From the IMG/VR virus record IMGVR_UViG_3300037634_007921, positions 1 through 40,705 of that record: 40,705 nt of DNA, one strand, 5' to 3'. Both the position numbers and the translations under genes were made by a program. This document shows, one piece after another, positions 1 to 27,102 of this stretch. Source of the DNA: a virus. Taxonomy: Duplodnaviria > Caudoviricetes. The notes beneath the pieces were generated by a model. That model was not told the origin of the DNA. It saw nothing but the letters and a program-made list of their open reading frames with translations, and ran no database searches. Each line of letters begins with the position of its first letter. Position 1 is the first letter of the stretch.

Positions 1-2
1 AA

Positions 3-224
3 AGATTCTTACTGGGGGAGGCAAAAAGTCGACCGAGCGTACGCGCTTATGTAGAATCTGTAGTTGGTATTCTAGAGCAGTTCATACCCAAAAGCCAGCG
101 TGAAAGTCGCCAACTTAGTGTTGCGCGACAACACCTCAATGAAATAAAAAAATTAAATCGAAAACTGGAAGAAAAAATTAGCCTTTTAGAAGAACAAGTA
201 AAGGTATTAGAAGAGGGAAAATAA
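3..224 (+). CDS. 3' part of a small coiled-coil hypothetical protein (5'-truncated by the window edge)
   Basis: Frame 3 is open from base 3 (RFLLGEAKSRPSVRAYVESV...LEEQVKVLEEGK) to TAA 222-224, directly abutting ATG 225; frames 1 and 2 contain stops. Not in the ORF track. Confidence 0.75.
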   Translation, partial: RFLLGEAKSRPSVRAYVESVVGILEQFIPKSQRESRQLSVARQHLNEIKKLNRKLEEKISLLEEQVKVLEEGK

Positions 225-2387
225 ATGGGCGGTGTTTCCGGACATTTAAATCATCTCTATGATAATAGAGATCTAACTTATGATGAGATAGCCGATATCC
301 TAATGAAGGCGGCCGCAGGCGAACTTGTAGGCACTGAAAAGACTGATGGCTTTAATATTTTCCTAGGATACGTCAACGGAGAGCCTCGCGCAGCCCGTAA
401 TAAAGGCGATATGGCTAAAGGGGGCTTGTCTTTTGAAGATCTCATGGCTCGCAAATACCAGGGCGGCGAGAAAGCCCGACGCGCATACGTCGAGTCTTTT
501 GAGGCGTACGCCAAAGCAGTCAACACTCTCTCAGAGAAAGAAATCGCCTCAATTTTTGGGGAAGATGGTGAAATATTCTACAATGCTGAAATTCAAGGTC
601 CTTTAGCTGCGAACGTCGTCAATTACGACGATAATGTTATCAATATTCATCGGATGGGGCACAAGCGTTATAATCATGACAACAATCAATTAGAAGTAGT
701 GGACAACACAAAAGCCTCGGAGGCGCTTGATGCGCTAATTGATCGATTTGAGGCCGTACTCGCTACGGAACCTTTTAGTGTACGGCGCACTGCTTTTCTC
801 ACCCTCAATAAAATCACAGACGAACGCATCGTGGACAACACACTTGCAAGAATTAAAGCAACTGGTTTGGCTGGTGACGTCACCATTAACGATCTGTTAG
901 AGAGAGCCCTTTTACGAGAAATAAGGTCAGAAATACCCGACCTGGACGGAGAAAGACAACGACAGGTGGTAGCCCGAATTCTCCGGACAGAGGGATATTC
1001 AAGTCTAACTCAAATAGGAAAGGGTTTAAGTCGAGACATAAAAGATCAGATTACCCTATTCGTAAAGGAGACAGCTCCGAACGTAATAAAAGAAAAAATG
1101 TGGCCTCTTGAATCCGCGATTCATGATTTTACAGTTGAATTGTTACGGGGTCTGCACAGCACATATGTTTTAGATAATGAGCATGAGGTTGGGCGACTTA
1201 AGACAGAGGTAGAGGCTGCTATACGTGCGATTCAAAAATACCAGGGTCCTTATCGGGAAGAAGCGCATACTATTTTGCAGCGCCAACTCGAAAAACTCAA
1301 ACATCACGACAATGTGGATACAGTTGTGGAAGGGTTCGCCTTTCAATATTGCCACAAGGGTGGAGATTGCGCAATGTACAAATTCACAGGCAATTTCGCC
1401 CCTATTAATCAATTGTTAGGTCTTTTTAAGTATGGCAGGGGGAAAATGCCCCCCATGAAGCTTAACGAGGAAAACCAAAGAATAGAAAACATTGTTGCCA
1501 TTTATCCTGGTCGGTTTCAACCGATGGGGCGACACCATGCAGAAGTATTTAATAAGATTCAAGATGAGCGGGGTTATGACAATACTTTTATTGCCACATC
1601 TGGTAAGGTAGCCCCTCCAAGATCTCCTTTTGATTTCACAGATAAGCAAGTAATCGCTGCGCAGCATGATATTCCTGCCTCTAAAATAGTGCATACCAAA
1701 AACCCCTACAAAGCTACTGAAATTCTTGATGATTTTGATCCGAACACAACCGCAGTAATATATTACGTGGGAGCCAAGGATATGGCTGAAGATCCGCGAT
1801 TTGGGGGATTAGGTGGGCTTAAAAAAGACGGCACTCCCAGATACTTTCGCGAATACGATAAAGGCGAGGACTTGGAAGGCTGGGGCGCACATGGTTATAT
1901 AGCCGTTGCGCCACACGTTTCTATCGATATACCGGGAATGGGCGAGATGTCGGGCACCAATCTACGCAAAGCGCTTGAAGATGCCGACGAAGAAACATTT
2001 AAAAACATAATGGGCTTTTATGATGCCCAAATATATGATATAATTAAAGGAAAGCTAGAACAATCTGGTTTAAAGGAGGCCCAGTATAATCTGGGAATCT
2101 TTCGTCGGATGATGGGAGAAATATTAGAAGAAGAGGCCATGTTTGGATCTTTTCAAGCGGGTTTAAGTAATCCTCCTTATGTTGGAACCAGACGTGTTTC
2201 GGGTGAAGAGGAAGAAGTCGAAGATGAGGAAGAATTGGAAGAAATCTCTGCAATGGGCGCCGGCGCTTCGAATCGCACCGGTGCTGTTAGTGGCGCTTCC
2301 ACTCCTCGGCGAAAAAAAGTAGAAGAAGACGAAATTGTTAATGAATTCTACAACTATTTACTAAACAACTTGAGGGATGAAATATGA
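225..2387 (+). CDS. Fusion: N-terminal ATP-dependent (RNA) ligase-like nucleotidyltransferase + NMNAT/cytidylyltransferase-like domain + acidic tail
   Basis: N-terminal TEKTDGFN (ligase motif I KxDG), AARNKG, NAEI, VEGFAF (motif IV) and YKFTG (motif V). C-terminal IYPGRFQPMGRHH...SPF...VGAKD...MSGTNLR follows the GRFQPxHxGH...SxTxIR pattern of HIGH-family transferases. Confidence 0.7.
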   Translation: MGGVSGHLNHLYDNRDLTYDEIADILMKAAAGELVGTEKTDGFNIFLGYVNGEPRAARNKGDMAKGGLSFEDLMARKYQGGEKARRAYVESFEAYAKAVNTLSEKEIASIFGEDGEIFYNAEIQGPLAANVVNYDDNVINIHRMGHKRYNHDNNQLEVVDNTKASEALDALIDRFEAVLATEPFSVRRTAFLTLNKITDERIVDNTLARIKATGLAGDVTINDLLERALLREIRSEIPDLDGERQRQVVARILRTEGYSSLTQIGKGLSRDIKDQITLFVKETAPNVIKEKMWPLESAIHDFTVELLRGLHSTYVLDNEHEVGRLKTEVEAAIRAIQKYQGPYREEAHTILQRQLEKLKHHDNVDTVVEGFAFQYCHKGGDCAMYKFTGNFAPINQLLGLFKYGRGKMPPMKLNEENQRIENIVAIYPGRFQPMGRHHAEVFNKIQDERGYDNTFIATSGKVAPPRSPFDFTDKQVIAAQHDIPASKIVHTKNPYKATEILDDFDPNTTAVIYYVGAKDMAEDPRFGGLGGLKKDGTPRYFREYDKGEDLEGWGAHGYIAVAPHVSIDIPGMGEMSGTNLRKALEDADEETFKNIMGFYDAQIYDIIKGKLEQSGLKEAQYNLGIFRRMMGEILEEEAMFGSFQAGLSNPPYVGTRRVSGEEEEVEDEEELEEISAMGAGASNRTGAVSGASTPRRKKVEEDEIVNEFYNYLLNNLRDEI

Positions 2388-3169
2388 TCGACCGCGATAA
2401 AATGATTAACGAGATACAAGAAGAGAAGCGATTGCGACAGTTAATACGCAAAGACTTGAAGCGCTTTCTGGAAAATAAAAAGAAAGAAACCCTCCAGGAA
2501 AAGAAGACTGAGGATCGGCTGCGTATCATTGTTCGCAAATTGATTGCAGAGGCCGCCAAAACAGACGTCCCTGACGCACAACCTCACCAAAACACTGGCA
2601 TCAATGTACTTGAAGATCTTCTGAGAAATATTATCCCAATTGTGGAAGATGGATATAAAGCCCTGACTAGCGCAACAGAACAGCGTACTTCCTTCCGCTC
2701 TCACGTTTTGAACGCTATAGAAAACACCCTCAAGCCTGTCGAAGTTGTAGCAGATCTAGATACTGAAGAGGCAGAAGCAGCTTTAGAAGAGCAAGACATC
2801 ACCATTAATGTCGATGAGGATGAAGAAGTAGAGGATAAATTTATCCCTGTAAGAGATGTCGACATGGATGCGGACGAACCAGCAGAGGCGGAGGAAGAAG
2901 ATACTTTCACAATCGCTGGTGAAGACTTAACAGGTAGAAATTTTGCCTCAATTACATTTAATAAAGTAGAGAAACAAATCATTGATGCGTTTGAAAGCTT
3001 GGCCAACGAAGCCGACCGCAATCTTTTCTACGATTATCTACTCACCAACCTTAAACTTTATTTCGACAAATTCGAAGAAGAATTGCAGGTCACTACCGAT
3101 GAGCCCGATTCACCAGATTATGGCGAAGAACCGCTCGATGTGGACGAACCGGAAGATTTCGAAATTTAG
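2384..3169 (+). CDS. Acidic hypothetical protein, probable virion head-associated
   Basis: 261 aa; ATGA overlap with the upstream stop; GAGGG SD; two RLRxxIRKxxxE-like helices followed by D/E-rich tracts. Confidence 0.7.
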   Translation: MIDRDKMINEIQEEKRLRQLIRKDLKRFLENKKKETLQEKKTEDRLRIIVRKLIAEAAKTDVPDAQPHQNTGINVLEDLLRNIIPIVEDGYKALTSATEQRTSFRSHVLNAIENTLKPVEVVADLDTEEAEAALEEQDITINVDEDEEVEDKFIPVRDVDMDADEPAEAEEEDTFTIAGEDLTGRNFASITFNKVEKQIIDAFESLANEADRNLFYDYLLTNLKLYFDKFEEELQVTTDEPDSPDYGEEPLDVDEPEDFEI

Positions 3170-3172
3170 TCC

Positions 3173-3201
3173 TTTACATCTCCTTTCATTTGTGATATAA
3201 T
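3173..3201 (+). promoter_or_regulatory. Near-consensus sigma70 promoter with extended -10
   Basis: TTTACA (3173-3178), 17-nt spacer ending TGA, then TATAAT (3196-3201), in the intergenic gap before ORF 3242 and the tmRNA. Confidence 0.8.
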
Positions 3202-3241
3202 CTATATAAATACTTATTATTATTAAGTAATTTTAATTTAT

Positions 3242-3640
3242 ATGTCTTTTAATAAAAGAAATAAATATTACGGTTTATATAAGAATTATAGTATAATTAA
3301 TAAATTTAGTAAAGAAGATATTATTAATAAAGAAGTACTTAACACAATCAATAATATTTCTTTAGAAGATTTAATAGCTATTAAACTGGAACTTTCAACC
3401 AGATTCTTAAACGGCAAATTCTACGGTATACCTTTATGGTCTTCCATGCGTACAGTTACTCAGGAAGCTGTATTAAAAACCGCAGTCAGTATCTGTCGTT
3501 CAAAGAAAGAAAGTGCAAAGTTTTTAGGAATTGATTATACAGACTTCAGAAAACTAATTAAAAAGTTTGACATTGAATCGTTTTTTGAAAATGAAAGAAA
3601 TGGGGACGAAACGGTTTCGACAGAAAACGGATCTGACTAA
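3242..3640 (+). CDS. Fis/NtrC-type (HTH_8-like) DNA-binding protein
   Basis: C-terminal EAVLKTAVSICRSKKESAKFLGIDYTDFRKLIKKFDI fits the Fis-type pattern A..LGI....L..KL.KYGI. The last 12 codons and the stop are within the tmRNA. Confidence 0.7.
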   Translation: MSFNKRNKYYGLYKNYSIINKFSKEDIINKEVLNTINNISLEDLIAIKLELSTRFLNGKFYGIPLWSSMRTVTQEAVLKTAVSICRSKKESAKFLGIDYTDFRKLIKKFDIESFFENERNGDETVSTENGSD

Positions 3641-3954
3641 CGTGCAAGACTGTGTGAGTAGCACAGCCAAAATACTCAATCTTTATAAAAGCCAACGATA
3701 ACGTTGAATTTGACTACGCCCTAGCGGCTTAATCACGGGGTTTCTAATTGCCTTGAAATTAAAAATTAGAAAAAAAAGGAATTTTGGTTATTTAATAACT
3801 AAATAATTTTGGTAGCCGACACCTTTAAGAGCGGTAAATGGATTCCCCGATAGGAAATTGGGTGGCCGATGCAACGGTGGTGCTTGCATCTATTCTTGTG
3901 AATGACGTTATTAGCTAACTTTTTTGGACTTGGGTTCGACTCCCAACGTCTCCA
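3602..3954 (+). ncRNA. ssrA: tmRNA (one-piece)
   Basis: 5' GGGGACG (3602-3608) pairs with CGTCTCC (3947-3953) including the G3:U alanine determinant; discriminator A3954. GGTTTCGAC near the 5' end and GGAC before the T-arm TTGGG-TTCGACT-CCCAA. PK1 = CTGTGT/GCACAG + GAGTA/TACTC. P2 = AACGT-GCAAGA/TCTTGT-ACGTT. CCA is not encoded. Confidence 0.96.
3691..3732 (+). other. tmRNA tag reading frame ANDNVEFDYALAA*
   Basis: GCC AAC GAT AAC GTT GAA TTT GAC TAC GCC CTA GCG GCT TAA after ATAAAA; canonical AND...YALAA degron. Confidence 0.95.
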
Positions 3955-4024
3955 TCTTTTTTATTCTTCTCTTTAAAATCTTCTCTTACATACGTTACAA
4001 TCATAATAGATCTCAGGAGGACCT

Positions 4025-4222
4025 ATGTCTGAAGAAACACCAGAAGTGGTGACAAAAAATTGGAAGTCTATTGGAGTCTTTAGCTCCTATGGCAAAGCTT
4101 TGGAAAAAAAGAATTCAACCCTCGAAAAATACAGCTTGGTTAAAATTAGACGGTGTGGTCGAGGCGGCCACGAATTTCGCGTAAAATATTGGGATGAGAA
4201 ACCCTCAAAGAAGAAGAAGTAG
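4025..4222 (+). CDS. Small basic hypothetical protein
   Basis: 65 aa with strong SD AGGAGG just upstream of the ATG. Confidence 0.7.
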   Translation: MSEETPEVVTKNWKSIGVFSSYGKALEKKNSTLEKYSLVKIRRCGRGGHEFRVKYWDEKPSKKKK

Positions 4223-4229
4223 GAAGTTT

Positions 4230-5318
4230 ATGGCAAACAAAAAAAATATATTAGTGGTAGGTACTGGAACTATTGGAGAGCCCCTTATTGGTGTGCTTTC
4301 TGATTTTCGAAAGAAGTTTAATTCTAATGTCTTTTTTCATAAACGCACCCCCTTGGTGGATGAAGTCGGTAAAGTCGACAGTTTAATTAAAAGAGGCGCA
4401 AAACTAGTCACAGATCCGGCTACAGAAAAAGAATTTGTAGACATGGGACACCCAGTAGCGTTACATTTTGAACAAGCTCTGCAGATTAGCGATGTGGTGA
4501 TCGACTGTACTCCTGCTGGTAACGAGAATAAAGAAAAATATTATTCTCAACTTTTAGAGGAGAAGTATTGTTCATCTAAAAACAAGAAAAGACTTTTTAT
4601 CGCGCAAGGGAGCGAGAAACATTTTGGCCTTCCCTATGCTTACGGGATTAACGATGAAGCGCTTGAACTTGCCAACGCCAGCTTCATTCAAGTGGTAAGC
4701 TGTAATACACATAATATATGCTCGTTGATAAACACCGTCGTAGCTAATCCGAAAGAGTTGCTTAAGGCCGACTTTGTATGTATTCGAAGATCAAACGACA
4801 TTAGCCAGAAAACATCTTTTGTGCCTTCACCAGAAGTCGGAAAGCACCCCGATGTTTGCTTTGGCACACATCACGCTAGGGATGCGCAGGATGTTTTCGG
4901 TACTCTCGGAGAACACCTGAATTTATTTTCTAGCGCTATGAAGCTCAATACCCAATATATGCACATTATCCGGTTCAACATCGAAGTCAAGGGATCCCCT
5001 TCTAAAGAACATATCGTTAACCGTTTTAAAGAAAATAAATTTACAGCACTAACCCATAAAACATCTGCAAATCGAGTATTTTCCTTTGGTCGAGATCATG
5101 GCTATTATGGACGTATATTCAATCACACTGTCCTTTCGATTCCGTCCCTTCATATTCAACCATATAAGGGCAATTCGATAATATCGGGGTTTTGTTTCAC
5201 CCCTCAAGATGGCAACTCACTGCTTAGTAGCTGCGCGGCAACAATGTGGGGGCTTTATGGCGAGAAGTACCAAAAGGCGATGAAACCTTTCGATGAATAT
5301 TTATTTACCAATATTTAA
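4230..5318 (+). CDS. gap: Archaeal-type (class II) glyceraldehyde-3-phosphate dehydrogenase-like protein
   Basis: GTGTIG Rossmann motif, VVIDCTP, IAQGSEK, catalytic VVSCNT, IRRSND, THHARD and TQYMH match class II GAPDH motifs (GYGTIG, DATP, FQGGEK, VVSCNT, RRAAD, SHHGPD, TLMH). Start moved to ATG 4230, after the upstream stop and AGGA. Confidence 0.8.
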   Translation: MANKKNILVVGTGTIGEPLIGVLSDFRKKFNSNVFFHKRTPLVDEVGKVDSLIKRGAKLVTDPATEKEFVDMGHPVALHFEQALQISDVVIDCTPAGNENKEKYYSQLLEEKYCSSKNKKRLFIAQGSEKHFGLPYAYGINDEALELANASFIQVVSCNTHNICSLINTVVANPKELLKADFVCIRRSNDISQKTSFVPSPEVGKHPDVCFGTHHARDAQDVFGTLGEHLNLFSSAMKLNTQYMHIIRFNIEVKGSPSKEHIVNRFKENKFTALTHKTSANRVFSFGRDHGYYGRIFNHTVLSIPSLHIQPYKGNSIISGFCFTPQDGNSLLSSCAATMWGLYGEKYQKAMKPFDEYLFTNI

Positions 5319-5324
5319 GGATGT

Positions 5325-6167
5325 TTATTTGGACTCGATAACTTTAATAGGCTTGACTGTGAGAGTTTCCTCGGGAGGTTTAAACAGATTCTTTAGATCT
5401 AAGATTCTCATTACAGACTTGTAAGTAACATATTTTTTAACATTCTTCTTTATAAACTTAAGCAGGTATCGATGACGCGAAGAAAGAGCAATTTCCGGAA
5501 ATCGAATATACACAGAATGGAGTACTCCGATTAAGTGTCCTTTTTCATTTAGAATCATAGAGCCGCTACTTCCAGGGTTTGCCGGCAATGAATAAAACGC
5601 GTATTTCCCAGAGCTGCCATTGTAAATACCTTCAAATAGAGGCACCATGTTCGGCTGCCAAATTCCCCGGGGCGCAGCGACATTATACACTTTGTCTCCT
5701 GGAGCGGGCGCTTTAGTGGCAATACGAATCACTGGAATCTCCGTTAACCCTTCGACATATAAGAGACAGATATCGTGTTTCATATCTGAAGCCAACACCG
5801 TGGCTTTATATTCATCCCCTTTAAGAGTTGTAACAGTGAAAAAATCTTTATGCGTTATTGGCGGGGAGACAGCAACGGGAGGTACCTCCGTATCGCAAAA
5901 ATGCGCAGCAGTGAGTGCATATGCTCCCTCATTATCAACTTTAATAACAAAACCAGAAGCCATGGAATTCATTTCATGCTTCAAGCATTTCCCACCCACA
6001 GGACACTGTTGTAATTTTACTTTTTTCTCAAGATATAGGAAGGATTCTCTTGCGTCCTGCAAGATAGCGCTGGATGCGACGGCGGAACTAGCACAAGAGG
6101 ATAAACAAACAAGCAGGAGACTGAGAAGAAACATCGAACTTTTGAATCTCGTCTCTACTCCTTTCAC
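5325..6167 (-). CDS. Trypsin-like serine protease with predicted lipoprotein signal peptide
   Basis: LTAAHFC (His), HDICLL (Asp), PGSSGS (Ser); hydrophobic N-terminus ending in lipobox LSSC; GGAGG SD before the GTG start. Confidence 0.85.
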   Translation of the reverse strand: MKGVETRFKSSMFLLSLLLVCLSSCASSAVASSAILQDARESFLYLEKKVKLQQCPVGGKCLKHEMNSMASGFVIKVDNEGAYALTAAHFCDTEVPPVAVSPPITHKDFFTVTTLKGDEYKATVLASDMKHDICLLYVEGLTEIPVIRIATKAPAPGDKVYNVAAPRGIWQPNMVPLFEGIYNGSSGKYAFYSLPANPGSSGSMILNEKGHLIGVLHSVYIRFPEIALSSRHRYLLKFIKKNVKKYVTYKSVMRILDLKNLFKPPEETLTVKPIKVIESK

Positions 6168-6260
6168 GTAGGATACCTCCTATAATAACTATGTGAAAAA
6201 AAACAATTGTTTTGTTTTATTAAGAAAAAAACGGAAAACTATTTAATTAGAGAAGGTTAT

Positions 6261-7574
6261 ATGGCTAAAAATATATATGTCTTAGACACGAGCGCGTGCC
6301 TTACCGATTCCACGAGTATTAGAGCTTTTGGCAAGAACGACGTTGTTTTGCCGTTAAAAGTGCTTGAAGAAATAGACAGGCACAAAAAACGACAGGACAG
6401 TGTAGGGGTAAACGCTCGTGAAGTGATCCGACGTCTCGACAATTTGCGGGAGTCCGGAAGCCTCTATAAAGGGGTGAAATTGGGCGAAGGCCGCGGCAAG
6501 CTGTATGTCAAATTATGTATAGCCGACGACCTGCCAAGCGATCTGGACACCTCTATCCCAGATAATGAGATTATTGGTGTAGCATTGAACCAAAAGTCCG
6601 CATACCCACGGACTAAGGTAATTGTGGTTACTCGCGATATTAATATGCGTGTTAAGTGCGATGCGCTAGGATTAGCGACCGAAGACTACCTCACGGACCA
6701 AGTAATTCAAGACACAAGTCATATATACACTGGATTTATGGAACATCTGGTCGACGAACCGGTTTTGGATAGGTTTTACGCTGGAGAAGAAGTTTTTATT
6801 GAAGAAGATGAACTTGTCTTGATGCCTAACCAATTTGTAATGCTTGTTTCTAATCAAAACGAAAAGAAAACAGGATTAGCCCGTTTCCTCAATTATACAT
6901 ACCCCCTCGCCCGTATAAACGGGAAGCACAAAAAACCACTCTGGGGTGTTAAACCGCGGAATAAAGAACAAAGGTTTGCCTTGGATCTCTTGCACGACAA
7001 AGCGGTCGAAGTGGTGACATTGGTTGGCCAAGCCGGTTCCGGTAAGACACTTCTGGCCATCGCCGCAGGTCTCCACCAAGTAATGGAGGAAGAATCTTAT
7101 CAAAGATTGGTTATTTCCAGACCAATTCAACCCCTAGGTAAAGATATCGGATTTCTACCGGGAACAATGGAAGAAAAGATGCTTCCATGGATTGCTCCCA
7201 TTCAAGATAACTTGCAATTCCTACTGGGGAACGATAAAGCAGCTTTAGAAATGTATATGGATAATGGCACAATTGAAGTCGAGGCTTTAACATATATTCG
7301 AGGCCGCTCCATTTCGAATGCATTTATAATAATCGACGAGGCCCAGAATCTTACCGCTCATGAGCTTAAAACTATTATTACTCGCGTCGGTGAGAACACA
7401 AAGATTATCTTAACGGGTGATATTGAGCAGATCGATAATGTCTATATAGACGAGACTTCAAATGGTCTAACGCACGCGGTAGAAAAATTTAAATCTTACG
7501 AAATATCCGGCCACGTCGCTCTTGTCAAAGGAGAGCGTTCTAAGGTTGCATCAATCGCAGCAAAAATACTTTAA
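6261..7574 (+). CDS. phoH: PIN-PhoH (PhoH2-type) ATPase/RNase
   Basis: PIN domain: VLDTS, VLEEID, DNEII, VTRDINMRVK. PhoH domain: GQAGSGKT, GFLPG, YIRGRS, IIDEAQN, TRVG, GDIEQID, RS. Start at ATG 6261 after AAGG. Confidence 0.93.
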   Translation: MAKNIYVLDTSACLTDSTSIRAFGKNDVVLPLKVLEEIDRHKKRQDSVGVNAREVIRRLDNLRESGSLYKGVKLGEGRGKLYVKLCIADDLPSDLDTSIPDNEIIGVALNQKSAYPRTKVIVVTRDINMRVKCDALGLATEDYLTDQVIQDTSHIYTGFMEHLVDEPVLDRFYAGEEVFIEEDELVLMPNQFVMLVSNQNEKKTGLARFLNYTYPLARINGKHKKPLWGVKPRNKEQRFALDLLHDKAVEVVTLVGQAGSGKTLLAIAAGLHQVMEEESYQRLVISRPIQPLGKDIGFLPGTMEEKMLPWIAPIQDNLQFLLGNDKAALEMYMDNGTIEVEALTYIRGRSISNAFIIIDEAQNLTAHELKTIITRVGENTKIILTGDIEQIDNVYIDETSNGLTHAVEKFKSYEISGHVALVKGERSKVASIAAKIL

Positions 7575-7598
7575 ATAAAAGTTACAAATAAGTATAAT
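7570..7598 (+). promoter_or_regulatory. Possible sigma70-type promoter
   Basis: TTTAAA (7570-7575), 17 nt, TATAAT (7593-7598) in the gap before ORF 7623; the context is AT-rich, so a chance match is possible. Confidence 0.5.
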
Positions 7599-7622
7599 AT
7601 TTATATTGACTTGGAGGAAAAT

Positions 7623-7907
7623 ATGAGTTATAATAAGGATGAAAATCCCGATCTGTTAAAAAAAGTAGAGAAGGATACCGAGCTTAAAAGCTGGTTAGTA
7701 AACTATGTTGGAGAAAAATGCGAGCCCGAAAACGACGAAGTTAATGTTGAAATGATAATTAAGACAATGGCAGAGGAATTTCCTGAGTTTTTGTTGGTGG
7801 TTGCGGAAGAGAATTTTATCCGCGGATATCAACAGGGACTGGCCGACGTCGAAGAGGGCGAAAAGCTTTTTAGAGATCACAATGAAAAAATACATTCAGG
7901 AAAATAG
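7623..7907 (+). CDS. Acidic hypothetical protein
   Basis: GGAGG SD precedes ATG 7623; coherent helical 94-aa product. Confidence 0.7.
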   Translation: MSYNKDENPDLLKKVEKDTELKSWLVNYVGEKCEPENDEVNVEMIIKTMAEEFPEFLLVVAEENFIRGYQQGLADVEEGEKLFRDHNEKIHSGK

Positions 7908-8577
7908 CAGAGAGGCAAAGCGGGAATTTCAGGAACACAAATTGTTCGATAAGCCGGCTTATGTCATCAACCCTCTTCCTGATGGGGTTTCTTTAGAATC
8001 GGTTCTAGGCCGTATCGAGCAGGAGTTGTCCCCCGCTTTAACTGCCAATTTTGACAATATTTATATTGGAGCATTCGATGAATTCTCGAAAAAGGGAAGA
8101 GCTTTGAATGCTTTGTATAAAGATAGGACCATCTATGTATCCAATCTTCAAGATAGCGAAAGTGATATGCTAGATGACATTGTGCATGAAATTGCCCACT
8201 CTTTAGAAGAGAGAAATTACGAGGAAATTTACGGTGATGAGCGATTAGAGAATGAGTTTTTAGGTAAAAGAAAATTCTTACACCATATCTTACCGGAAGA
8301 CAAGAGAGCCAATATGGTTTACTTTTTAAATCCGAGCTATGATGAGAATTTTGACATGTATCTTTATAAGGACTTAGGCTACGATATGCTGCGTACATTA
8401 ACGTCAGAGTTGTTCTATTCTCCATATGCAATCACCGCCTTAAAAGAATACTGGGCTAACGGGTTTGAAAATTATTTTTTACAAGACCGGGCAAAACTCC
8501 GGAGCATAAGTCCAGTGTTGTACCAAAAAATTAAAAATCTTGTTGATAACAAGAAGGAAGATAGAAATGAACTGTAA
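7882..8577 (+). CDS. Zincin-like metallopeptidase (HExxH)
   Basis: DIVHEIAHSLE plus downstream YAITALKEYWANGFE, resembling the lethal-factor-type Y...EY(F/W)AE arrangement; likely start ATG 7882 (MKKYIQE). Confidence 0.65.
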   Translation: MKKYIQENSREAKREFQEHKLFDKPAYVINPLPDGVSLESVLGRIEQELSPALTANFDNIYIGAFDEFSKKGRALNALYKDRTIYVSNLQDSESDMLDDIVHEIAHSLEERNYEEIYGDERLENEFLGKRKFLHHILPEDKRANMVYFLNPSYDENFDMYLYKDLGYDMLRTLTSELFYSPYAITALKEYWANGFENYFLQDRAKLRSISPVLYQKIKNLVDNKKEDRNEL

Positions 8578-8863
8578 AATAAAAGAAGCTGATGGTAAAC
8601 TGCTTGTAACGGCTACGATTGGAGCAGCCCGAAAAGGAGCAGCACCATCGCACATATCCACCGACGATATTTTAAAATGGCTAAGTCAAAACTACCCTAA
8701 GCATAAAAAATTAAATCTTGTACAAGAAGGTGCCGCCCATAATGCAGCGCTCAAAGCGCAGCGAACAGGGACATGGATCTTTTCACTGGCCCCTAAGAAA
8801 GCACAAAACCCTCCCAAAACAACTAAGACTTCACCCTCTAAGAGTAAAAAACCCACGAACTAG
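8567..8863 (+). CDS. Basic hypothetical protein
   Basis: ATG 8567 overlaps the upstream gene end; AAGGA SD; Lys/Pro/Thr-rich tail. Confidence 0.6.
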   Translation: MNCKIKEADGKLLVTATIGAARKGAAPSHISTDDILKWLSQNYPKHKKLNLVQEGAAHNAALKAQRTGTWIFSLAPKKAQNPPKTTKTSPSKSKKPTN

Positions 8864-8875
8864 AGAGTACGGAAA

Positions 8876-9676
8876 ATGGCACACATATCTTATTCAGAAT
8901 TAAAAGAGTGGGTAACTTGCCCATGGAAGCACAAGCTTAACTATATTGAAGGTCTTAGAAGGTTCAAAGGAAATGAATATACCGCTTTTGGGACTGCGCT
9001 GCACACTGTGTGCGAAAATCTAGTTCAGTTCCATGGCCCTGATGCTGCACCGGTTTTTGAGCCGAAGCAAATGTTTCAGGAGGAGTTCTTGAAAAACCTT
9101 CAAAAAATAAAGGCCGAAGATCCAGAGATCGAATACCGGGCAGACCTTATAATGAGTATGCGCGCCCAAGGAGAGACTCTCACTGATTATATCTTACCTG
9201 GTCTTAAAAAAACATTTGGAACCTTCGAGTTGGTGGCAGTCGAAGAACAACTTTACGACCCCATCGAAGGAAGTGACCTCAACTTTAAAGGTTTTATCGA
9301 TCTGGTTATCAAAACAAAGGATGGAATTACCCATATAATCGACTGGAAAACTTGTTCTTGGGGATGGGACAGTCGTCGACGCTCCGATAAAATGGTTACT
9401 TACCAATTAACTCTTTATAAGCACTTTTGGTGCGAAAAGCACGACGTCAGCCCTTCTAAAGTACAAACCCACTTTGCCCTCTTAAAGAGGACTGCAAAGT
9501 CTAACTTAGTAGAGATATTCGAAGTATCCAATGGTGCAAAAAAAGTTCAAAATGCTCTTAAATTGTTAAACAAAGCCCTCTATAATATTAAGAAGACTAA
9601 CTTTGTCAAGAACAAGCTTTCCTGTTATGGCAAATTTGGCAAGTGCGAATATTATAAAACAAAACATTGTACATGA
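8876..9676 (+). CDS. PD-(D/E)xK exonuclease, Cas4/RecB/AddB-like
   Basis: ISYS...CPWK, FGTALH, E, KGFIDL, IIDWKT, YQLTLY, and three C-terminal Cys completing a possible 4-Cys Fe-S staple. Confidence 0.88.
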   Translation: MAHISYSELKEWVTCPWKHKLNYIEGLRRFKGNEYTAFGTALHTVCENLVQFHGPDAAPVFEPKQMFQEEFLKNLQKIKAEDPEIEYRADLIMSMRAQGETLTDYILPGLKKTFGTFELVAVEEQLYDPIEGSDLNFKGFIDLVIKTKDGITHIIDWKTCSWGWDSRRRSDKMVTYQLTLYKHFWCEKHDVSPSKVQTHFALLKRTAKSNLVEIFEVSNGAKKVQNALKLLNKALYNIKKTNFVKNKLSCYGKFGKCEYYKTKHCT

Positions 9677-9683
9677 GGCGCAA

Positions 9684-10949
9684 ATGAGCAAAAAAATTAA
9701 AATCCTAACAATCAGCGATATGCCCCTGTCTCCATCCGGAGTGGGCACACAAACCAAATATATGATCGAGGCACTCTTAAAAACAGGCAAATATCAAGTG
9801 ATTAGCCTGGGGGGTGCGATCAAACACCCTAACTATGAACCCATTCGTACCGAGCAATACAAAGATGACTGGGTTATTATCCCGGTAGATGCTTATGGTT
9901 CACCGGATATGATTCGCTCTATTATGCGTACGGAAAAGCCTGATCTGTTGTGGTTTATGACGGATCCGCGCTTCTTTGGTTGGCTATGGGATATGGAGAA
10001 TGAAATTCGACCTAATATTCCAATGATTTATTATCACGTGTGGGATAACAAACCCTATCCCAATTATAATAAGCCTTTTTATGATTCTAACGATGTTATT
10101 CTTGCCATATCCAAACTCACAGAAGAAGTTGTTACAAATGTTTCACCAGATGTGGAATGTAAATATGTACCTCATTCGGTCAATACAGATATATTTAAAA
10201 AAATGCCCGAGGAAATGGTCCTCGACTTCAAGACTAAAGTACTGGGTGAAGACTTCGACAAAGATAAACTGATATTCTTCTGGAACAACAGAAACGCTCG
10301 AAGAAAGCAAAGTGGATCTTTGATTCATTGGTTTGCCAAGTTTTTGGAAAAAGTGGGAAAAGATAAAGCAACTTTGGTTATGCACACCGAAGTTCAGGAT
10401 CCAAATGGACAGAATCTGGATGCTATTGTAAAAAATCTCGGCCTTACCGAAGGAGAAGTATTTTTTAGCCAAGAGAAAGTCGACGCTCCACGCCTTGCGC
10501 TTATGTACAATGCGGCAGATTGTACAGTAAACATTTCGGACGCAGAGGGATTCGGCTTGGCAACGTTGGAATCTTTGGCTTGTGAAACTCCTATTATTGT
10601 CAATATGACAGGAGGTCTCCAAGAACAAGTGACTGACGGAGAGAATTGGTTCGGCGTTGGTCTAGAGCCAACGTCAAAAGCGATTATTGGCTCACAAGCG
10701 ATTCCATATATCTATGAAGATCGCCTCTCTGAAGAAGTAGTTGTCAATGCTTTTATAGAAATTTACAATAAAACCAAAGAAGAGCGTGAAGCTCTCGGCG
10801 CAGCCGGTAGAGAGCACGTGCAAAAAAATTATAATTTTGAAAACTATTGCGAACAATGGGATGTGATTATGACTGATATTCATGAAAGATTTGGATCTTG
10901 GCCAACACGATCAGGGCGCAAGACATGGACTATTAAGGAGGTGGCCTAG
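9684..10949 (+). CDS. Glycosyltransferase family 4 (GT-B)
   Basis: SGVG, VPHSV, NRNARRK, SDAEGFGLATLES, TGGLQEQ; start at ATG 9684 (MSKKIKILTISD). Confidence 0.9.
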   Translation: MSKKIKILTISDMPLSPSGVGTQTKYMIEALLKTGKYQVISLGGAIKHPNYEPIRTEQYKDDWVIIPVDAYGSPDMIRSIMRTEKPDLLWFMTDPRFFGWLWDMENEIRPNIPMIYYHVWDNKPYPNYNKPFYDSNDVILAISKLTEEVVTNVSPDVECKYVPHSVNTDIFKKMPEEMVLDFKTKVLGEDFDKDKLIFFWNNRNARRKQSGSLIHWFAKFLEKVGKDKATLVMHTEVQDPNGQNLDAIVKNLGLTEGEVFFSQEKVDAPRLALMYNAADCTVNISDAEGFGLATLESLACETPIIVNMTGGLQEQVTDGENWFGVGLEPTSKAIIGSQAIPYIYEDRLSEEVVVNAFIEIYNKTKEEREALGAAGREHVQKNYNFENYCEQWDVIMTDIHERFGSWPTRSGRKTWTIKEVA

Positions 10950-12254
10950 ATGGAGTTTACAACAAAAGTTTTAGTGAGAGGGCCAATGCTTACGCGAACT
11001 GGTTATGGCGAACACGCTCGCTCCGTTCTGCGTGCATTGCGTTTGATCGAAGGTGTTGAAATATTTGTGATGCCAACCCAATGGGGTCAATCGGCCTGGA
11101 TATGGGAAGATGACGATGAACGACAGTGGATAGATGAGTGCATAACAAAGACCGTCGCTTATAACGCGCAACAAGCTGCTGGATATGACCTAAGTATCCA
11201 AGTGGGAATTCCCAACGAATGGCAACGATATGCACCTGTTAATATTGGAGTTACTGCGGGAATTGAAACCACGAAAGTTGCCCCCATTTGGCTGGAAAAG
11301 GCCAATGTGATGGATCGTATCATTACAATCTCGGAACATTCAAAAGCAGGATTCACAGGCACAGTATATGAGGGCACTCATAAAGAGACAGGACAGCGAA
11401 TTAAATTGGAATGCAATACTCCAATTGATATTGTACACTACCCTGTAAAACATTACGAAGAAGTTGATCTAGGTTTTGATTTAGATACAGAATTTAATTT
11501 CTTAACAGTTGCACAATGGGGTCCTCGAAAAAATATAGAGGTGACAGTCCAATGGTTTGTAGAAGAATTCATCGACAATCCAGATGTGGGCCTGGTGGTA
11601 AAAACTTTCGCGAAAGGCGGATCTCTCATTGATAGAGTTCGTGCGGAAAACACCCTGAGTCAACTTTTGAACAAATATCCCAAACGACAGTGTAAGGTTT
11701 ATTTGTTGCACGGAGACATGTCAGAAGAGGAAATGCATTCTCTTTATAAACATCCCCAAATTAAATCTTTTGTCTCTTTGACACACGGAGAGGGATTTGG
11801 ATTACCTCATTTTGAAGCAGCGTACTCAGGACTTCCTGTTATTGCACCAGAGTGGAGCGGATATTTAGACTTCCTCTGTATGCCTAAAACTAATAAAAAA
11901 GGCAAAACAAAAGTAAAACCTTATTTTTCCACCGTTGAATATGAGATTTCACCAATTCAAAAGCATGCCGTTTGGGAAGGGGTGTTACAAGCAGATTCAA
12001 TGTGGGCCTATGCAGAACAAGGTTCTTATAAAATGCGATTGCGAGAGATGCATAAAGATTACGGCCGCTTTAAAAAGGATGCCACAGATTTACAGCAGTG
12101 GATCCACGAGAATTTCTCTCTCGAACAGCAATCCGAGAAAATGATTAATATTTTCAAGGACCATATCACTTGGCACGGCGCAGGCACTGATGACGAGTTG
12201 GATCTGGACGAATGGGTTGCCGAATTGGAATCTACTGCTGTAGCTTATGAATAA
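10950..12254 (+). CDS. Glycosyltransferase family 4 (GT-B)
   Basis: TGYGEHAR, RKN, THGEGFGLPHFEAAYSGLPVIAPEWSGYLDF; AAGGAGG SD. Confidence 0.9.
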   Translation: MEFTTKVLVRGPMLTRTGYGEHARSVLRALRLIEGVEIFVMPTQWGQSAWIWEDDDERQWIDECITKTVAYNAQQAAGYDLSIQVGIPNEWQRYAPVNIGVTAGIETTKVAPIWLEKANVMDRIITISEHSKAGFTGTVYEGTHKETGQRIKLECNTPIDIVHYPVKHYEEVDLGFDLDTEFNFLTVAQWGPRKNIEVTVQWFVEEFIDNPDVGLVVKTFAKGGSLIDRVRAENTLSQLLNKYPKRQCKVYLLHGDMSEEEMHSLYKHPQIKSFVSLTHGEGFGLPHFEAAYSGLPVIAPEWSGYLDFLCMPKTNKKGKTKVKPYFSTVEYEISPIQKHAVWEGVLQADSMWAYAEQGSYKMRLREMHKDYGRFKKDATDLQQWIHENFSLEQQSEKMINIFKDHITWHGAGTDDELDLDEWVAELESTAVAYE

Positions 12255-13086
12255 CTATGTTTTTATTGCAGACTTCTTTGTCGATCAAATTTTAGGCGGC
12301 GGCGAACTAAGCAATGAAGAGTTAATTCGAAAGCTCGGCGAGACGGACCATCTTACAAAAATAAATTCTCACCTAGCAACAGTAGATGTGCTTAAAGAAC
12401 ATGGAGATGCGCGGTTCATCGTCTCCAATTTTGTGAATCTTTCGGAAGCCTCCAAGCAGTTTTTACAGAACGAATGTCAATACACCATCTATGAACACGA
12501 TCACAAGTATTTACGGAATAGAAATCCTGCTGTTTATAGAGGCTATGTGGCGCCGCGCGGCGTTTTAATAAATGTGGATTTTTATAAAAACGCAAAAGCG
12601 GTGTTTTGTCAAAGCGGCTTTCATTCCACTATCGTTAAGAAAAATTTAAATATTGAAAATATTGTTAACTTGAGCGGTAATTTGTGGAGTCTTAAATCCC
12701 TAGACAAAATGCTAGAGTTTGCATCTAAAGATAAAAGAGATGCTTCGTCAATAATGTTTTCGGCTACGCCACACAAAAATACCGACGGGGCGAAATCATA
12801 TTGCCAGGAGAAAAAAATAAAATATTATTTAATTCCTCCGAACCCTCATGAGGAGTTCTTGGATCAATTAAGTGATAATAAAAGCTTTGTATTCTTTCCC
12901 AAAACCCCTGAAACACTTTCGCGGGTTATAGTTGAGGCACGAATGATGGGAATGTCAGTGGTTACAAATGGAAATGTCGGCGCAGCGCAGGAAGAATGGT
13001 TTTCTCTTAAAGGTGAGCCGCTTATCGAGCATATGCGCAATAAACGAACCGAGATTGTCGAAAAAGTTGCAGAGGTTTATAGCTAA
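12247..13086 (+). CDS. Short GT-B glycosyltransferase-like protein
   Basis: GGGE N-terminal motif and PETLSRVIVEARMMG (E-x7-E). Confidence 0.7.
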   Translation: MNNYVFIADFFVDQILGGGELSNEELIRKLGETDHLTKINSHLATVDVLKEHGDARFIVSNFVNLSEASKQFLQNECQYTIYEHDHKYLRNRNPAVYRGYVAPRGVLINVDFYKNAKAVFCQSGFHSTIVKKNLNIENIVNLSGNLWSLKSLDKMLEFASKDKRDASSIMFSATPHKNTDGAKSYCQEKKIKYYLIPPNPHEEFLDQLSDNKSFVFFPKTPETLSRVIVEARMMGMSVVTNGNVGAAQEEWFSLKGEPLIEHMRNKRTEIVEKVAEVYS

Positions 13087-13832
13087 TGAAGACGCATTTT
13101 AAAATTGTAGTACCAGTTTATAACGCGGAATCGTGGATCGCATTATGTCTCCGGAGCATTAAAGCTCAGACTTATACAAATTACGAATGCCTCGTTGTAG
13201 ACGATTTCTCTACAGACTTAACACGCGAAATCATCAAGCGGGAAATAGGCGATTCCTACCAGATTCGATTGATAGAGCCCATAGAAAGAGGTTATCCCCT
13301 GGGAAGCTTAAATTTAGCTATCGAGAGTGCTAAAATGGAGGATGAAGATGTCATCGCGGTACTCGACGGAGACGATTGGTTCGCACGCAAAGAAAGTCTG
13401 GAAATTCTGGCCAAAACCTACCAAGAAAAGAATTGTTCTTTGACTTATGGCAGTTATGTGGAATATCCGAGCAAGGTAAGAGGAAAGTTTGCAAAGAAGG
13501 TACCCGAGTTCATAATTGAAACGAAAGCTTTTAGACAATCGGAATGGATGACGAGCCACATGCGTACTTTTAAATACAAACTGTGGAAAAATATTAAAAA
13601 AGAAGATCTGTGTGATGACGATGGAAAGCTTTATAAAAGAGCGGGTGATATTGCGGCGATGTACCCCATGTTAGAAATGGCCGGCCCAAAGATAGAATAC
13701 GTTGAAGACGTCGTATATGTGTATAATCGCGCTAATCCTCTTAACGAGGACAAAGTTGATCACTCTGAGCAACTGCGCATTGAAGCCAAACTACGACAAG
13801 GAAAAAAATATAATACCCTGGAGGAGAACTAA
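13086..13832 (+). CDS. Glycosyltransferase family 2 (GT-A)
   Basis: VVPVYN, VVDDFSTD, LDGDDW. Confidence 0.9.
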   Translation: MKTHFKIVVPVYNAESWIALCLRSIKAQTYTNYECLVVDDFSTDLTREIIKREIGDSYQIRLIEPIERGYPLGSLNLAIESAKMEDEDVIAVLDGDDWFARKESLEILAKTYQEKNCSLTYGSYVEYPSKVRGKFAKKVPEFIIETKAFRQSEWMTSHMRTFKYKLWKNIKKEDLCDDDGKLYKRAGDIAAMYPMLEMAGPKIEYVEDVVYVYNRANPLNEDKVDHSEQLRIEAKLRQGKKYNTLEEN

Positions 13833-13834
13833 AG

Positions 13835-14701
13835 TTGAATTATTTTGATACAAATAAAAAATATCTTATTACAGGCGGTACCGGCTTTCTTGGGCAGAAA
13901 CTGGTAGAGGAGTTGTTGAGTCGAGGACTAAACCTTCGCATTATAGCTCGCAACGAGGGAAAGTTAATCGAGCTTAAACAAAAGCATCCTTCTATTGAAA
14001 TATACACTGGAGATATGTGCGATCCGTTTATTGCACATCAAGCATGCCAAGGGATTGATGGGGTTTATCACTTAGCTGCCTATAAACATGTAGGATTGGC
14101 AGAGAAGTTTTCTTATGAGTGTACACAATCCAACGTTGTGGCTTCTATGAATATTCTACAAGAGTCACTTCGCCGAACCGAGAAGTTCGATTTTGTGTTA
14201 GGCATAAGCACCGATAAAGCAGCGCAAGTTGCCGGAGTATACGGTGCCACAAAATATCTTATGGAGAGCCTATTCGTACAATTCGAAGCACTAAATCCCG
14301 AGACTCAGTACCGACTCGTGAGATACGGGAATGTACTATATTCAACAGGCTCAGTGCTGTGCAAGTGGAAGAAGCTGCTCCAAGAGGGGAATGAGGTCAT
14401 TGTGACCGCTCCCGAGGCAACTAGGTTCTTTTGGACACGAGATGAGGCTGTAAAACTAATTTTTGATTGTTTGGCGAATGCCACGTCTTCTTTCCCATAT
14501 GTGCCCGAAATGAAGTCGATGTCTATAGACAATCTTTTGAAAGCGATGGCTCAAAAGTATTTACCCGCCGGCGAAACCCTGCAGATCAAAACCATTGGTC
14601 TTCAACAAGGTGAGAACCTTCATGAGAAAATATTAGCTGATGGCAAATATTCTAATGAGGTTGAGCGTTTTACGGTCGAGGAAATATTGGAAAAGATTTA
14701 A
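13835..14701 (+). CDS. UDP-sugar 4,6-dehydratase (PseB/CapD, Polysacc_synt_2-like)
   Basis: TGGTGFLG, HLAAYKHV, STDKA, YGATK, RYGNV, TRF, GENLHE; TTG start with GGAGGAG SD. Confidence 0.85.
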   Translation: MNYFDTNKKYLITGGTGFLGQKLVEELLSRGLNLRIIARNEGKLIELKQKHPSIEIYTGDMCDPFIAHQACQGIDGVYHLAAYKHVGLAEKFSYECTQSNVVASMNILQESLRRTEKFDFVLGISTDKAAQVAGVYGATKYLMESLFVQFEALNPETQYRLVRYGNVLYSTGSVLCKWKKLLQEGNEVIVTAPEATRFFWTRDEAVKLIFDCLANATSSFPYVPEMKSMSIDNLLKAMAQKYLPAGETLQIKTIGLQQGENLHEKILADGKYSNEVERFTVEEILEKI

Positions 14702-14708
14702 AAATAAT

Positions 14709-16493: not shown

Positions 16494-17275
16494 CACAAAT
16501 AAAATTTGACGGCGAATGGCATGCCGGTATTGTAGCAAACTTAGAGGATACATTTTTACAAGAATGTGTCAATATTTGCCACGACAAAGAGAAGCTTTTA
16601 AATTTTAAAAGAAATAATATTTTTTGCAAAGTTATCGGGAATGACATCCGACGTAAGGACATTTCTGACGTCTGGTATAACTTCCTTGAAAACACCGAAC
16701 TTATGGAAGACATAGCGAAATATAAGAACAATGATGCCGTAGGGAATCCTCTCTTTTACAGCTACGAGAAAACGGGAATGATTAGCCCCGGCACCCTGTG
16801 TTTTTTGTCGGTACTCCAGGACATTAAAACTCGCCTGGTCGATCCTAAAGATAAAAGAGTGTGCGAGATTGGAAGCGGCTATGGCGGCCAAGCTAATATT
16901 ATTTTAAAATACGGCGTAAAGTCAATGGACCTCATTGACAGACCACAGACTTTGGCATTAGCAAAAAAATATTTAAGTCTGTATAAACATTCCAATGTAT
17001 CGTTCCACAATACCGAGTCTATTGAGGCGAAAGAATACGACCTTGTGGTATCCAACTGGTGTCTCTCAGAGCTGGACCGCAAAGGGATGCAATTTTATAT
17101 CGATAATGTAATTAAAACTTGCAATCATGGCTATTTTTTGATAAACTTTAGAGACGAGAGCAAGCAACAGTGGATGATCGATGAATTAAGTAAAAACTTC
17201 TCTAAAGTAATATTAGAGGAAGAGAATCCACCTACCAATGAGATAAAGAATTATGTTTTGCTTTGCTCCAAATAA
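16490..17275 (+). CDS. SAM-dependent putative sugar O-methyltransferase
   Basis: VCEIGSGYGGQA motif I; DLVVSNWCLSE. Confidence 0.8.
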   Translation: MTQIKFDGEWHAGIVANLEDTFLQECVNICHDKEKLLNFKRNNIFCKVIGNDIRRKDISDVWYNFLENTELMEDIAKYKNNDAVGNPLFYSYEKTGMISPGTLCFLSVLQDIKTRLVDPKDKRVCEIGSGYGGQANIILKYGVKSMDLIDRPQTLALAKKYLSLYKHSNVSFHNTESIEAKEYDLVVSNWCLSELDRKGMQFYIDNVIKTCNHGYFLINFRDESKQQWMIDELSKNFSKVILEEENPPTNEIKNYVLLCSK

Positions 17276-17292
17276 ACCCGAAGAGGTGCAAC

Positions 17293-23758: not shown

Positions 23759-23759
23759 A

Positions 23760-27080: not shown

Positions 27081-27102
27081 CTTGTGTCAAGCTGAATAGT
27101 AT

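What the first reader, a model, noticed from the sequence alone, without database searches (positions are those of the whole stretch)
3173..3954. HTH regulator whose stop codon lies inside the tmRNA: a candidate self-tagging feedback circuit
Seen: one strong promoter (3173-3201) precedes a Fis-type HTH gene with no stop before the tmRNA. The mature tmRNA 5' end (G3602) falls exactly on a codon boundary after codon 120, and the frame reads GDETVSTENGSD-TAA through the tRNA-like domain. The HTH is complete before that point. Established: RNase P makes the tmRNA 5' end; non-stop mRNAs are tagged by tmRNA for ClpXP degradation; E. coli arfA is controlled through such a non-stop message; Fis activates stable-RNA promoters. 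Inference: each maturation event leaves a non-stop HTH mRNA, so regulator level would report trans-translation capacity (tagged and destroyed when tmRNA is active; the untagged ...SD form when unprocessed). Ribosomes crossing the acceptor stem could also gate processing.
Basis: partly seen in the sequence, partly recalled or inferred. Interest (0 to 1): 0.9.

Follow-up and report, generated by a model that had tools for sequence, protein, structure and literature searches.

The report
Phage gene ends inside its tmRNA
In a group of uncultured marine phages, a small Fis-like gene takes its last 12 codons and its stop codon from the start of the phage's ribosome-rescue RNA (tmRNA), so cutting that RNA free would strip the stop from the message and likely caps how much protein is made; a role as a sensor of ribosome rescue is untested and looks less likely.

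Summary
Observation confirmed: ORF 3242-3640 reads 12 codons into a full tmRNA (3602-3954) behind a near-consensus promoter. The layout is inherited: 40 of 116 distinct homologous loci overlap, all in this frame and in one clade. Outgroups have a separate tmRNA with its own promoter, which the overlap removed. The tail looks selected as protein: the stop stays at tmRNA codon 11 or 13 in 35 of 35 distinct 5' ends despite 8 switches, and the tail is acidic. A second lineage shows the same tail (protein evidence only). Best reading: the uncut precursor makes the working protein, and RNase P maturation then likely turns the message non-stop and ends its use. The arfA-like sensor reading is weaker: the full-length product lacks a destabilising tail, recognition-helix residues are unconserved, no conserved operator was found, close relatives lack the overlap, and many overlap lineages carry internal promoters. 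The idea is published for Carsonella smpB-ssrA (PMC4131195). This scan reported the same layout twice before on other DNA (e1-6073177, e1-6074522). No expression data settle it. New variant of a known kind; interest 0.48.

The parts
3173..3201 (+). sigma-70-type promoter-like site (TTTACA-17-TG-extended TATAAT); likely drives both the HTH gene and the tmRNA
   Evidence: 11 of 12 matches; boxes conserved in the closest relatives
3211..3229 (+). AT-rich palindrome in the short leader; 5' RNA hairpin, operator or chance
   Evidence: exact in window, L001, L002 and L084, one G-U change in L005; different palindromes in L006, L086, L089; 1.5 matches expected by chance at one mismatch
3242..3640 (+). 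132-aa Fis-like HTH protein gene with no Shine-Dalgarno motif; stop codon inside the tmRNA
3362..3409 (+). conserved helix (residues 41-56, LEDLIAIKLEL), predicted homodimer interface
3503..3565 (+). predicted helix-turn-helix (residues 88-108); DNA-reading positions variable across the family
3601..3602 (+). inferred RNase P cleavage site, between codons 120 and 121 (A at -2, U at -1)
   Evidence: RNase P 5' processing of tmRNA from PMC3985003 (passages)
3602..3640 (+). double-use stretch: tmRNA acceptor 5' strand, D-loop and P2, and the codons GDETVSTENGSD-stop
3602..3954 (+). one-piece phage tmRNA; 7-bp acceptor stem with G3-U; CCA not encoded
3691..3732 (+). tag reading frame ANDNVEFDYALAA-stop
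   Evidence: near-invariant in homologues

Best explanation
The gene's stop codon lies inside the phage tmRNA, so one transcript likely serves first as mRNA for a predicted dimeric Fis-like protein and then as tmRNA precursor, and RNase P maturation would remove the stop and end the message's useful life. Steps: (1) shown by comparison: relatives outside the clade have their own stop and a separate tmRNA promoter right after it, and the overlap clade lacks that spacer. (2) Inferred: in this subclade the strong upstream promoter supplies both products. (3) Inferred from selection: ribosomes cross the future cut site before the 350-nt tmRNA is finished, and they make the full 132-aa acidic-tailed protein, which is the working form. 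(4) Inferred from established biochemistry: once the acceptor stem forms, host RNase P cuts at 3601/3602; ribosomes left on the 5' piece are rescued by tmRNA with host SmpB, and their product is tagged and destroyed. The likely net effect is a small, capped burst of DNA-binding protein from a promoter strong enough for a stable RNA. The layout likely began as compaction and was then tuned, not built as a sensor.
For: Overlap in 40 of 116 distinct loci, all in frame 0, all on one side of an SH-aLRT 99 branch. The spacer between the conserved FF and G1 changes 4 times on the tree, always by whole codons. No tail from either other frame among 269 proteins. The stop is at tmRNA codon 11 or 13 in 35 of 35 distinct overlap 5' ends, against 17 of 79 separate tmRNAs; all 14 that lack the codon-11 stop have one at codon 13, against 5 of 21 that keep it; all three stop codons occur at codon 11; 8 switches on the tree. 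Codons 8-10 are 65% D/E, against 16% in separate tmRNAs, and non-overlapping homologues also end acidic. A post-stop promoter scoring 10 or more is present in 27 of 37 separate loci, against 3 of 35 overlap loci just upstream of G1. The window's subclade has upstream scores of 10-12 in most members and internal scores no better than synonymous shuffles (P 0.4-0.99). The tmRNA is intact. The 120-aa form models as a homodimer: score 0.65 against a best control of 0.09; the mark was reached by 20 of 30 solved pairs and 1 of 23 single chains; runs agree in at least 88% of contacts; pLDDT at least 75.
Against: No transcript, cleavage or tagging was observed. The counts are of related sequences and are not independent. 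The locus sample (best 80 of 190 and 80 of 474 confirmed hits) favoured tail-bearing loci because the query held the tail. The purine-rich P2 strand favours E/K codons anyway. 10 of 40 overlap genes have an internal promoter-like site scoring 11 or more (0.37 expected), so coupling is not clade-wide. Three nested loci have a separate tmRNA, and a nested subclade has none. Whether cleavage is faster than ordinary mRNA decay is unknown, and so is the host.
Confidence: 0.5

Rival explanations
1. Plain compaction: the overlap is a tolerated deletion. Cleavage comes late or matters little beside normal mRNA decay, and selection only keeps a harmless short acidic tail. tmRNA may come largely from internal or unrecognised phage promoters.
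For: A graded series of spacers exists: about 800 nt, 38-57 nt, a stop directly abutting G1 (L163-165), then overlap. Internal promoter-like sites occur in 11 of 35 overlap genes against 0 of 37 separate ones; one site keeps TTG-ACA...TGT-GGT-AAA in 6 of 9 lineages while other synonymous sites are near saturation. Relatives that lost the tmRNA show the same enrichment of internal sites (10 of 33). Hudson et al. found such overlaps rare and lineage-limited.
Against: Every stop-bearing message is still an RNase P substrate. The window's subclade has no internal site and has a strong upstream promoter. The overlap persists across proteins about 55% identical, although tmRNA bodies appear to be exchanged (tree incongruence).
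Confidence: 0.27
2. Trans-translation sensor with feedback: untagged 120-aa protein builds up when tmRNA is saturated and then changes transcription of this locus or of other phage genes.
For: The 120-aa form keeps the predicted dimer helix and HTH and ends like natural homologues. The gene sits next to a tmRNA across the wider family (71 separate and 19 overlapping of 101 further loci). A second lineage shows the same tail (P0216 cluster, 7 members). arfA and LacI are precedents.
Against: ArfA's design makes the full-length product unstable; here the full-length tail is acidic and conserved, which would give protein whatever the tmRNA activity. Recognition-helix positions have 2.8-3.9 bits of entropy. 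The leader palindrome changes sequence while that helix stays the same. Release without a tag needs a host ArfA/ArfB-like factor, which is unknown here. Nested relatives lack the overlap or the tmRNA.
Confidence: 0.13
3. Translation gates tmRNA supply: ribosomes sitting on tmRNA nt 1-50 delay acceptor-stem folding and RNase P cutting, so tmRNA matures according to ribosome traffic on the HTH gene.
For: The stop lies within the acceptor/P2 strand and is never far in (tail at most 15 codons in 69 of 69 proteins), as expected if deep ribosome entry is harmful. In this window the leader can extend the acceptor stem by pairing with the trailer.
Against: The leader-trailer pairing is seen only here and in the near-identical L001 (median z -0.1 over 31 overlap loci). 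The gene has no Shine-Dalgarno motif, so traffic is probably light. Internal promoters bypass translation in many lineages.
Confidence: 0.1

Closest known systems
smpB-ssrA overlap in Candidatus Carsonella ruddii (Hudson, Lau and Williams 2014, PMC4131195, passages read; they credit Mao et al. 2009, not read)
   Same: A same-strand coding sequence runs into the tmRNA gene, so maturation should give a non-stop mRNA; the authors state the feedback idea outright.
   Different: There the gene is smpB, the overlap is in half of the strains, and the extension is described as apparently random. Here it is a phage Fis-like gene, kept across a diverse clade, with fixed frame, constrained stop and acidic tail.
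E. coli arfA control by trans-translation (PMC3989581, passages)
   Same: An RNase cut inside the coding sequence makes a non-stop mRNA whose product is tagged.
   Different: The cutter is RNase III, the full-length ArfA is itself unstable through a hydrophobic tail, and the product rescues ribosomes. Here the cutter would be RNase P, the full-length tail is acidic, and no link of the product to rescue is shown.
LacI tagging by tmRNA (Abo et al. 2000, as summarised in PMC3985003, passage)
   Same: A DNA-binding regulator limited through trans-translation of its own mRNA.
   Different: No tmRNA overlap or RNase P cut is involved there.
Fis / NtrC-family DNA-binding domains
   Same: The top six VIA-align hits (Z 5.3-6.6) and the top Foldseek hits are of this family; predicted dimer with a C-terminal HTH.
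   Different: Scores are below significance (Foldseek E 0.72, Z under 8); extra N-terminal helices; variable recognition helix; the family was found almost only in phage contigs.
Phage-encoded tmRNAs (huge phages, PMC7162821; Melnitz, PMC9004378; Streptomyces phages; passages and hits)
   Same: A complete tmRNA carried by a large phage.
   Different: The passages read mention no gene overlapping the tmRNA 5' end; no SmpB was found in 10 related records.

Membership tests
one-piece tmRNA | 7-bp acceptor stem with G3-U and a T-arm | tested here: met
one-piece tmRNA | internal tag frame ending in a hydrophobic degron | tested here: met
   ANDNVEFDYALAA*
one-piece tmRNA | alanylation and tagging activity with SmpB | not testable with these tools
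   no SmpB in 0 of 10 related records, 0 of 3 near-complete, so host SmpB is assumed
coding sequence overlapping ssrA (Carsonella type) | same-strand coding sequence whose stop lies inside the mature tmRNA | tested here: met
coding sequence overlapping ssrA (Carsonella type) | the upstream gene is smpB, a partner of tmRNA | tested here: not met
   HTH-like fold and no SmpB match
ArfA/BrfA-type trans-translation sensor | most mRNA is made non-stop by a built-in cut or terminator | not testable with these tools
   inferred from the RNase P site; RNA contigs cannot show ends
ArfA/BrfA-type trans-translation sensor | the full-length product is unstable (hydrophobic C-terminus) | tested here: not met
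   last residue E 20, N 7, D 5, K 2, Y 1 of 35; ArfA feature; judged from sequence only
ArfA/BrfA-type trans-translation sensor | the truncated untagged product is active and acts on ribosome rescue | tested here: inconclusive
   the 120-aa model keeps dimer and HTH; no link to rescue was tested
Fis family | Pfam HTH_8 (PF02954) match at cut-off | tested here: inconclusive
   none for the window protein; 7 of 52 homologues at E up to 0.1, best 0.0064
Fis family | helical dimerisation region plus C-terminal HTH fold | tested here: inconclusive
   Fis/NtrC domains rank first, but Z 5.3-6.6 and E 0.72
Fis family | homodimer | tested here: met
   by model only: 0.65 against control 0.09; mark reached by 20 of 30 solved pairs and 1 of 23 single chains; may reflect likeness to solved Fis
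Fis family | conserved DNA-reading residues in the recognition helix (feature recalled) | tested here: not met
   positions 98-101 and 103 have 2.8-3.9 bits of entropy over 97 homologues
Fis family | binds and activates stable-RNA promoters (recalled) | not testable with these tools
   no conserved operator found

The most novel reading that the evidence does not exclude
These phages have, at least twice, wired a DNA-binding protein to their own tmRNA, so that RNase P maturation and self-tagging make the protein's level read out spare ribosome-rescue capacity in the infected cell and feed back on phage gene expression: a phage-built trans-translation sensor that uses RNase P where arfA uses RNase III.
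Probability: 0.13. Interest if true: 0.85.

Novelty: new variant of a known kind. Interest (0 to 1): 0.48.

Why it matters
Gene-into-tmRNA overlaps were reported as rare and seen only in a decaying endosymbiont genome (PMC4131195). Here one is kept across a diverse phage clade, with signs of selection on frame, stop position and tail, and probably arose a second time. It offers a compact natural test of whether stable-RNA maturation can cap a protein's output, and of what phage tmRNAs are for. The locus is under 800 bp and can be tested in a laboratory strain.

Tried and rejected
Leader-trailer pairing that extends the acceptor stem: not conserved, rejected as a clade feature. Leader palindrome as operator: kept only in the closest relatives and common by chance. 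Internal promoter in this window's gene: best score 8.5 in an identical-protein locus (L081), no better than synonymous shuffles. RNA evidence: one seawater metatranscriptome held 7% of the words; one 151-nt contig with 1 difference covers 3488-3630, crossing the junction by only 29 nt (below the tool's 31-nt bridging mark). Nothing else in 1-20000 was covered apart from a 90%-like piece of the gene, but the run was found with this stretch and contigs show neither ends nor strand, so it is not counted. PHROGs and PDB sequence searches gave no significant hit; no HTH relative among 50,697 cultured phage records. DNA for the second-origin proteins P0216/P0270 was not found; for P0176 (one 675-nt contig) only relatives with an abutting stop were found. 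The tmRNA-body tree did not match the protein tree and could not date the overlap. The careful protein tree did not finish; the quick tree was used, with 5 of 115 rows left out as short or unanchored plus duplicates. Literature searches found no report of this phage overlap; the library lacks most subscription papers, and no supplements were read.

Full report
Observation. The window is a virus record with PhoH, sugar-modification, sigma-like and lysin-like genes; two related records rated 100% complete are 186 and 206 kb. ORF 3242-3640 (132 aa) overlaps a complete one-piece tmRNA at 3602-3954. G3602 opens codon 121 and the frame reads GDETVSTENGSD-TAA. The promoter-like site at 3173-3201 is the best in the region, and its two boxes are kept around a variable spacer in the closest relatives. 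No terminator-like site was found between it and the tmRNA.

The protein. The window protein has no Pfam, PHROGs or significant PDB sequence hit; 32 of 52 homologues weakly match HTH_29 and 7 match HTH_8. The model (mean pLDDT 74.9) ranks Fis and NtrC DNA-binding domains first in both fold searches, below significance. The 120-aa form models as a homodimer through the conserved helix 41-51 (0.65 against best control 0.09; mark reached by 20 of 30 solved pairs and 1 of 23 single chains; at least 88% contact agreement; pLDDT at least 75; the pass may reflect likeness to solved Fis). The recognition-helix positions are the most variable of those examined, which fits an architectural DNA binder or a diversifying one better than a fixed autoregulator (inference). 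The family is wide (456 representatives). Among species genomes it appeared only in 2 contigs of one archaeal MAG, probably binned phage DNA (inference).

Conservation of the overlap. Of 160 loci (best 80 of 190 viral and 80 of 474 metagenomic hits; the query held the tail, so overlap loci are favoured), 56 overlap, 57 have a separate tmRNA and 47 have none nearby; among 116 distinct ones the counts are 40, 44 and 32 (four loci were reclassified by hand or by Rfam, and 9 of the 32 have under 1000 nt after the stop). All overlaps are in frame 0. At protein level, 67 of the 120 listed close homologues carry the frame-0 tail, and none of 269 proteins carries a tail from another frame. On the quick protein tree (110 rows, 117 columns) all 39 overlap rows lie on one side of an SH-aLRT 99 branch, together with 3 separate loci and a subclade without tmRNA (no tmRNA in 5 such records, the best 73-78% complete). 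In 101 further loci, 71 had a separate tmRNA, 11 had none and 19 were overlaps from the same clade. So the family usually stops before the tmRNA, and one clade does not. In L163-165 the stop directly abuts G1. P0176, 92% identical to them, reads on as GDAMA, and the P0216 cluster (7 members) ends GGATVSTENK(E/K). This points to a second origin in the same frame, on protein evidence only.

Signs that the tail is translated and selected. The spacer from the conserved FF to G1 changes 4 times on the tree, always by whole codons. The stop is at tmRNA codon 11 (21) or 13 (14) in 35 of 35 distinct 5' ends. Among 79 separate tmRNAs read in the same frame, 45 stop before codon 11 and 15 stay open past 12 codons (Fisher p 0.005 for the latter, not corrected for relatedness). 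All 14 without the codon-11 stop have one at codon 13, against 5 of 21 of the others, and the position switches 8 times. Codons 8-10 are 65% D/E against 16%, with middle base A in 97 of 105 against 57 of 117, although the U-rich partner strand allows either purine. Non-overlapping homologues end acidic too. The uncut message therefore seems to make protein that matters, and its tail looks stabilising (own knowledge of C-terminal degrons; the ArfA review notes stabilisation by terminal aspartates).

Promoters. Separate loci carry a strong site straddling the HTH stop (score 10 or more in 27 of 37), which overlap loci lack (3 of 35 near G1). Two apparent compensations follow. The window's subclade has a near-consensus upstream promoter and no internal site. 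Other overlap lineages have internal sites (11 of 35 against 0 of 37; 10 of 40 scoring 11 or more against 0.37 expected), one kept in 6 of 9 lineages at near-saturated synonymous sites. The subclade without tmRNA shows the same enrichment. What seems to be conserved is downstream transcription, not its coupling to HTH translation. These are consensus matches, not mapped starts.

Mechanism. Because the stop is inside the tmRNA, every complete HTH message is a tmRNA precursor (sequence). RNase P makes the tmRNA 5' end (PMC3985003, passages) and needs the acceptor stem, whose 3' strand is made 350 nt later, so a leading ribosome can finish first (inference). After the cut, the 5' piece is non-stop; host SmpB is needed (none in 10 related records). 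I put 0.5 on this acting as a real cap on protein output, 0.27 on harmless compaction, 0.13 on a feedback sensor and 0.10 on translation gating tmRNA supply. The sensor fails a defining ArfA feature (an unstable full-length product) and has no operator evidence. The leader-trailer pairing that would favour gating is not conserved. RNA data were inconclusive.

Known and new. Hudson et al. 2014 (passages) describe the same geometry and feedback idea for Carsonella smpB, found it nowhere else for smpB, and counted 379 same-orientation overlaps of Pfam-positive genes with tRNA or tmRNA genes, about 1 in 15,000 mRNAs. I read that paper before opening the scan's earlier notes; two of them report this layout on other genomes with a similar verdict, and they are not independent support. 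Seven literature searches found no report of the phage case. The finding is real and conserved, a new variant of a known kind, with function untested. Interest 0.48.

Noticed in passing
L036, L044, L050, L063-L065, L073, L074, L145, L150, L153, L160, L266-L268, L270 (e.g. L050:784-938): A 120-160 nt structured RNA, mostly between the post-stop promoter and the tmRNA or a tRNA, in outgroup loci. No Rfam match at E up to 0.5 in the 12 loci scanned. 17 of 34 pairs change on both sides, 0 of 500 shuffles as high, with a pseudoknot. Not found in the window or in overlap loci. Already noted by the scan.
   Followed up: partly
L008, L012, L045, L091, L097, L107, L108, L135, L136, inside the HTH gene at codons ELT...GK: A conserved internal promoter-like site (TTGACA-17-TG-TAAAYT) written into synonymous codons; two other internal sites recur in related lineages.
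   Followed up: yes
L163-L165, end of the HTH gene: The stop codon directly abuts tmRNA G1, a likely intermediate towards overlap; these are freshwater or other contigs of a distant lineage by sequence only, habitat not checked.
   Followed up: partly
L114, L128, L250: tRNA-Asn and tRNA-Thr lie between the HTH stop and the tmRNA, in loci nested within the overlap clade.
   Followed up: partly
L018-L042 group (tail EEKEVL/I): A subclade with no tmRNA nearby, where the HTH stop mostly overlaps the next gene's start (ATGA).
   Followed up: partly
tmRNA bodies of L014, L045, L135, L136: The tmRNA 3' parts appear to be swapped between phages: near-identical HTH genes carry different bodies.
   Followed up: no
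window 4194-5318: A GAPDH-like ORF with only a weak Gp_dh_C match (E 0.003), two genes after the tmRNA.
   Followed up: no
window 7801-8577: An ORF with an HExxH motif and weak, below-cut-off metallopeptidase-type Pfam rows.
   Followed up: no
window 9603-28899: A long run of about 25 sugar-nucleotide and glycosyltransferase-like genes, judged by eye from the translations.
   Followed up: no
window 29711-30403 and 33716-40705: A late-sigma-like gene (phrog_234, E 1e-5; about 33% identical to Flavobacterium phage immuto proteins) and an ORF of more than 2330 aa running off the window end.
   Followed up: partly
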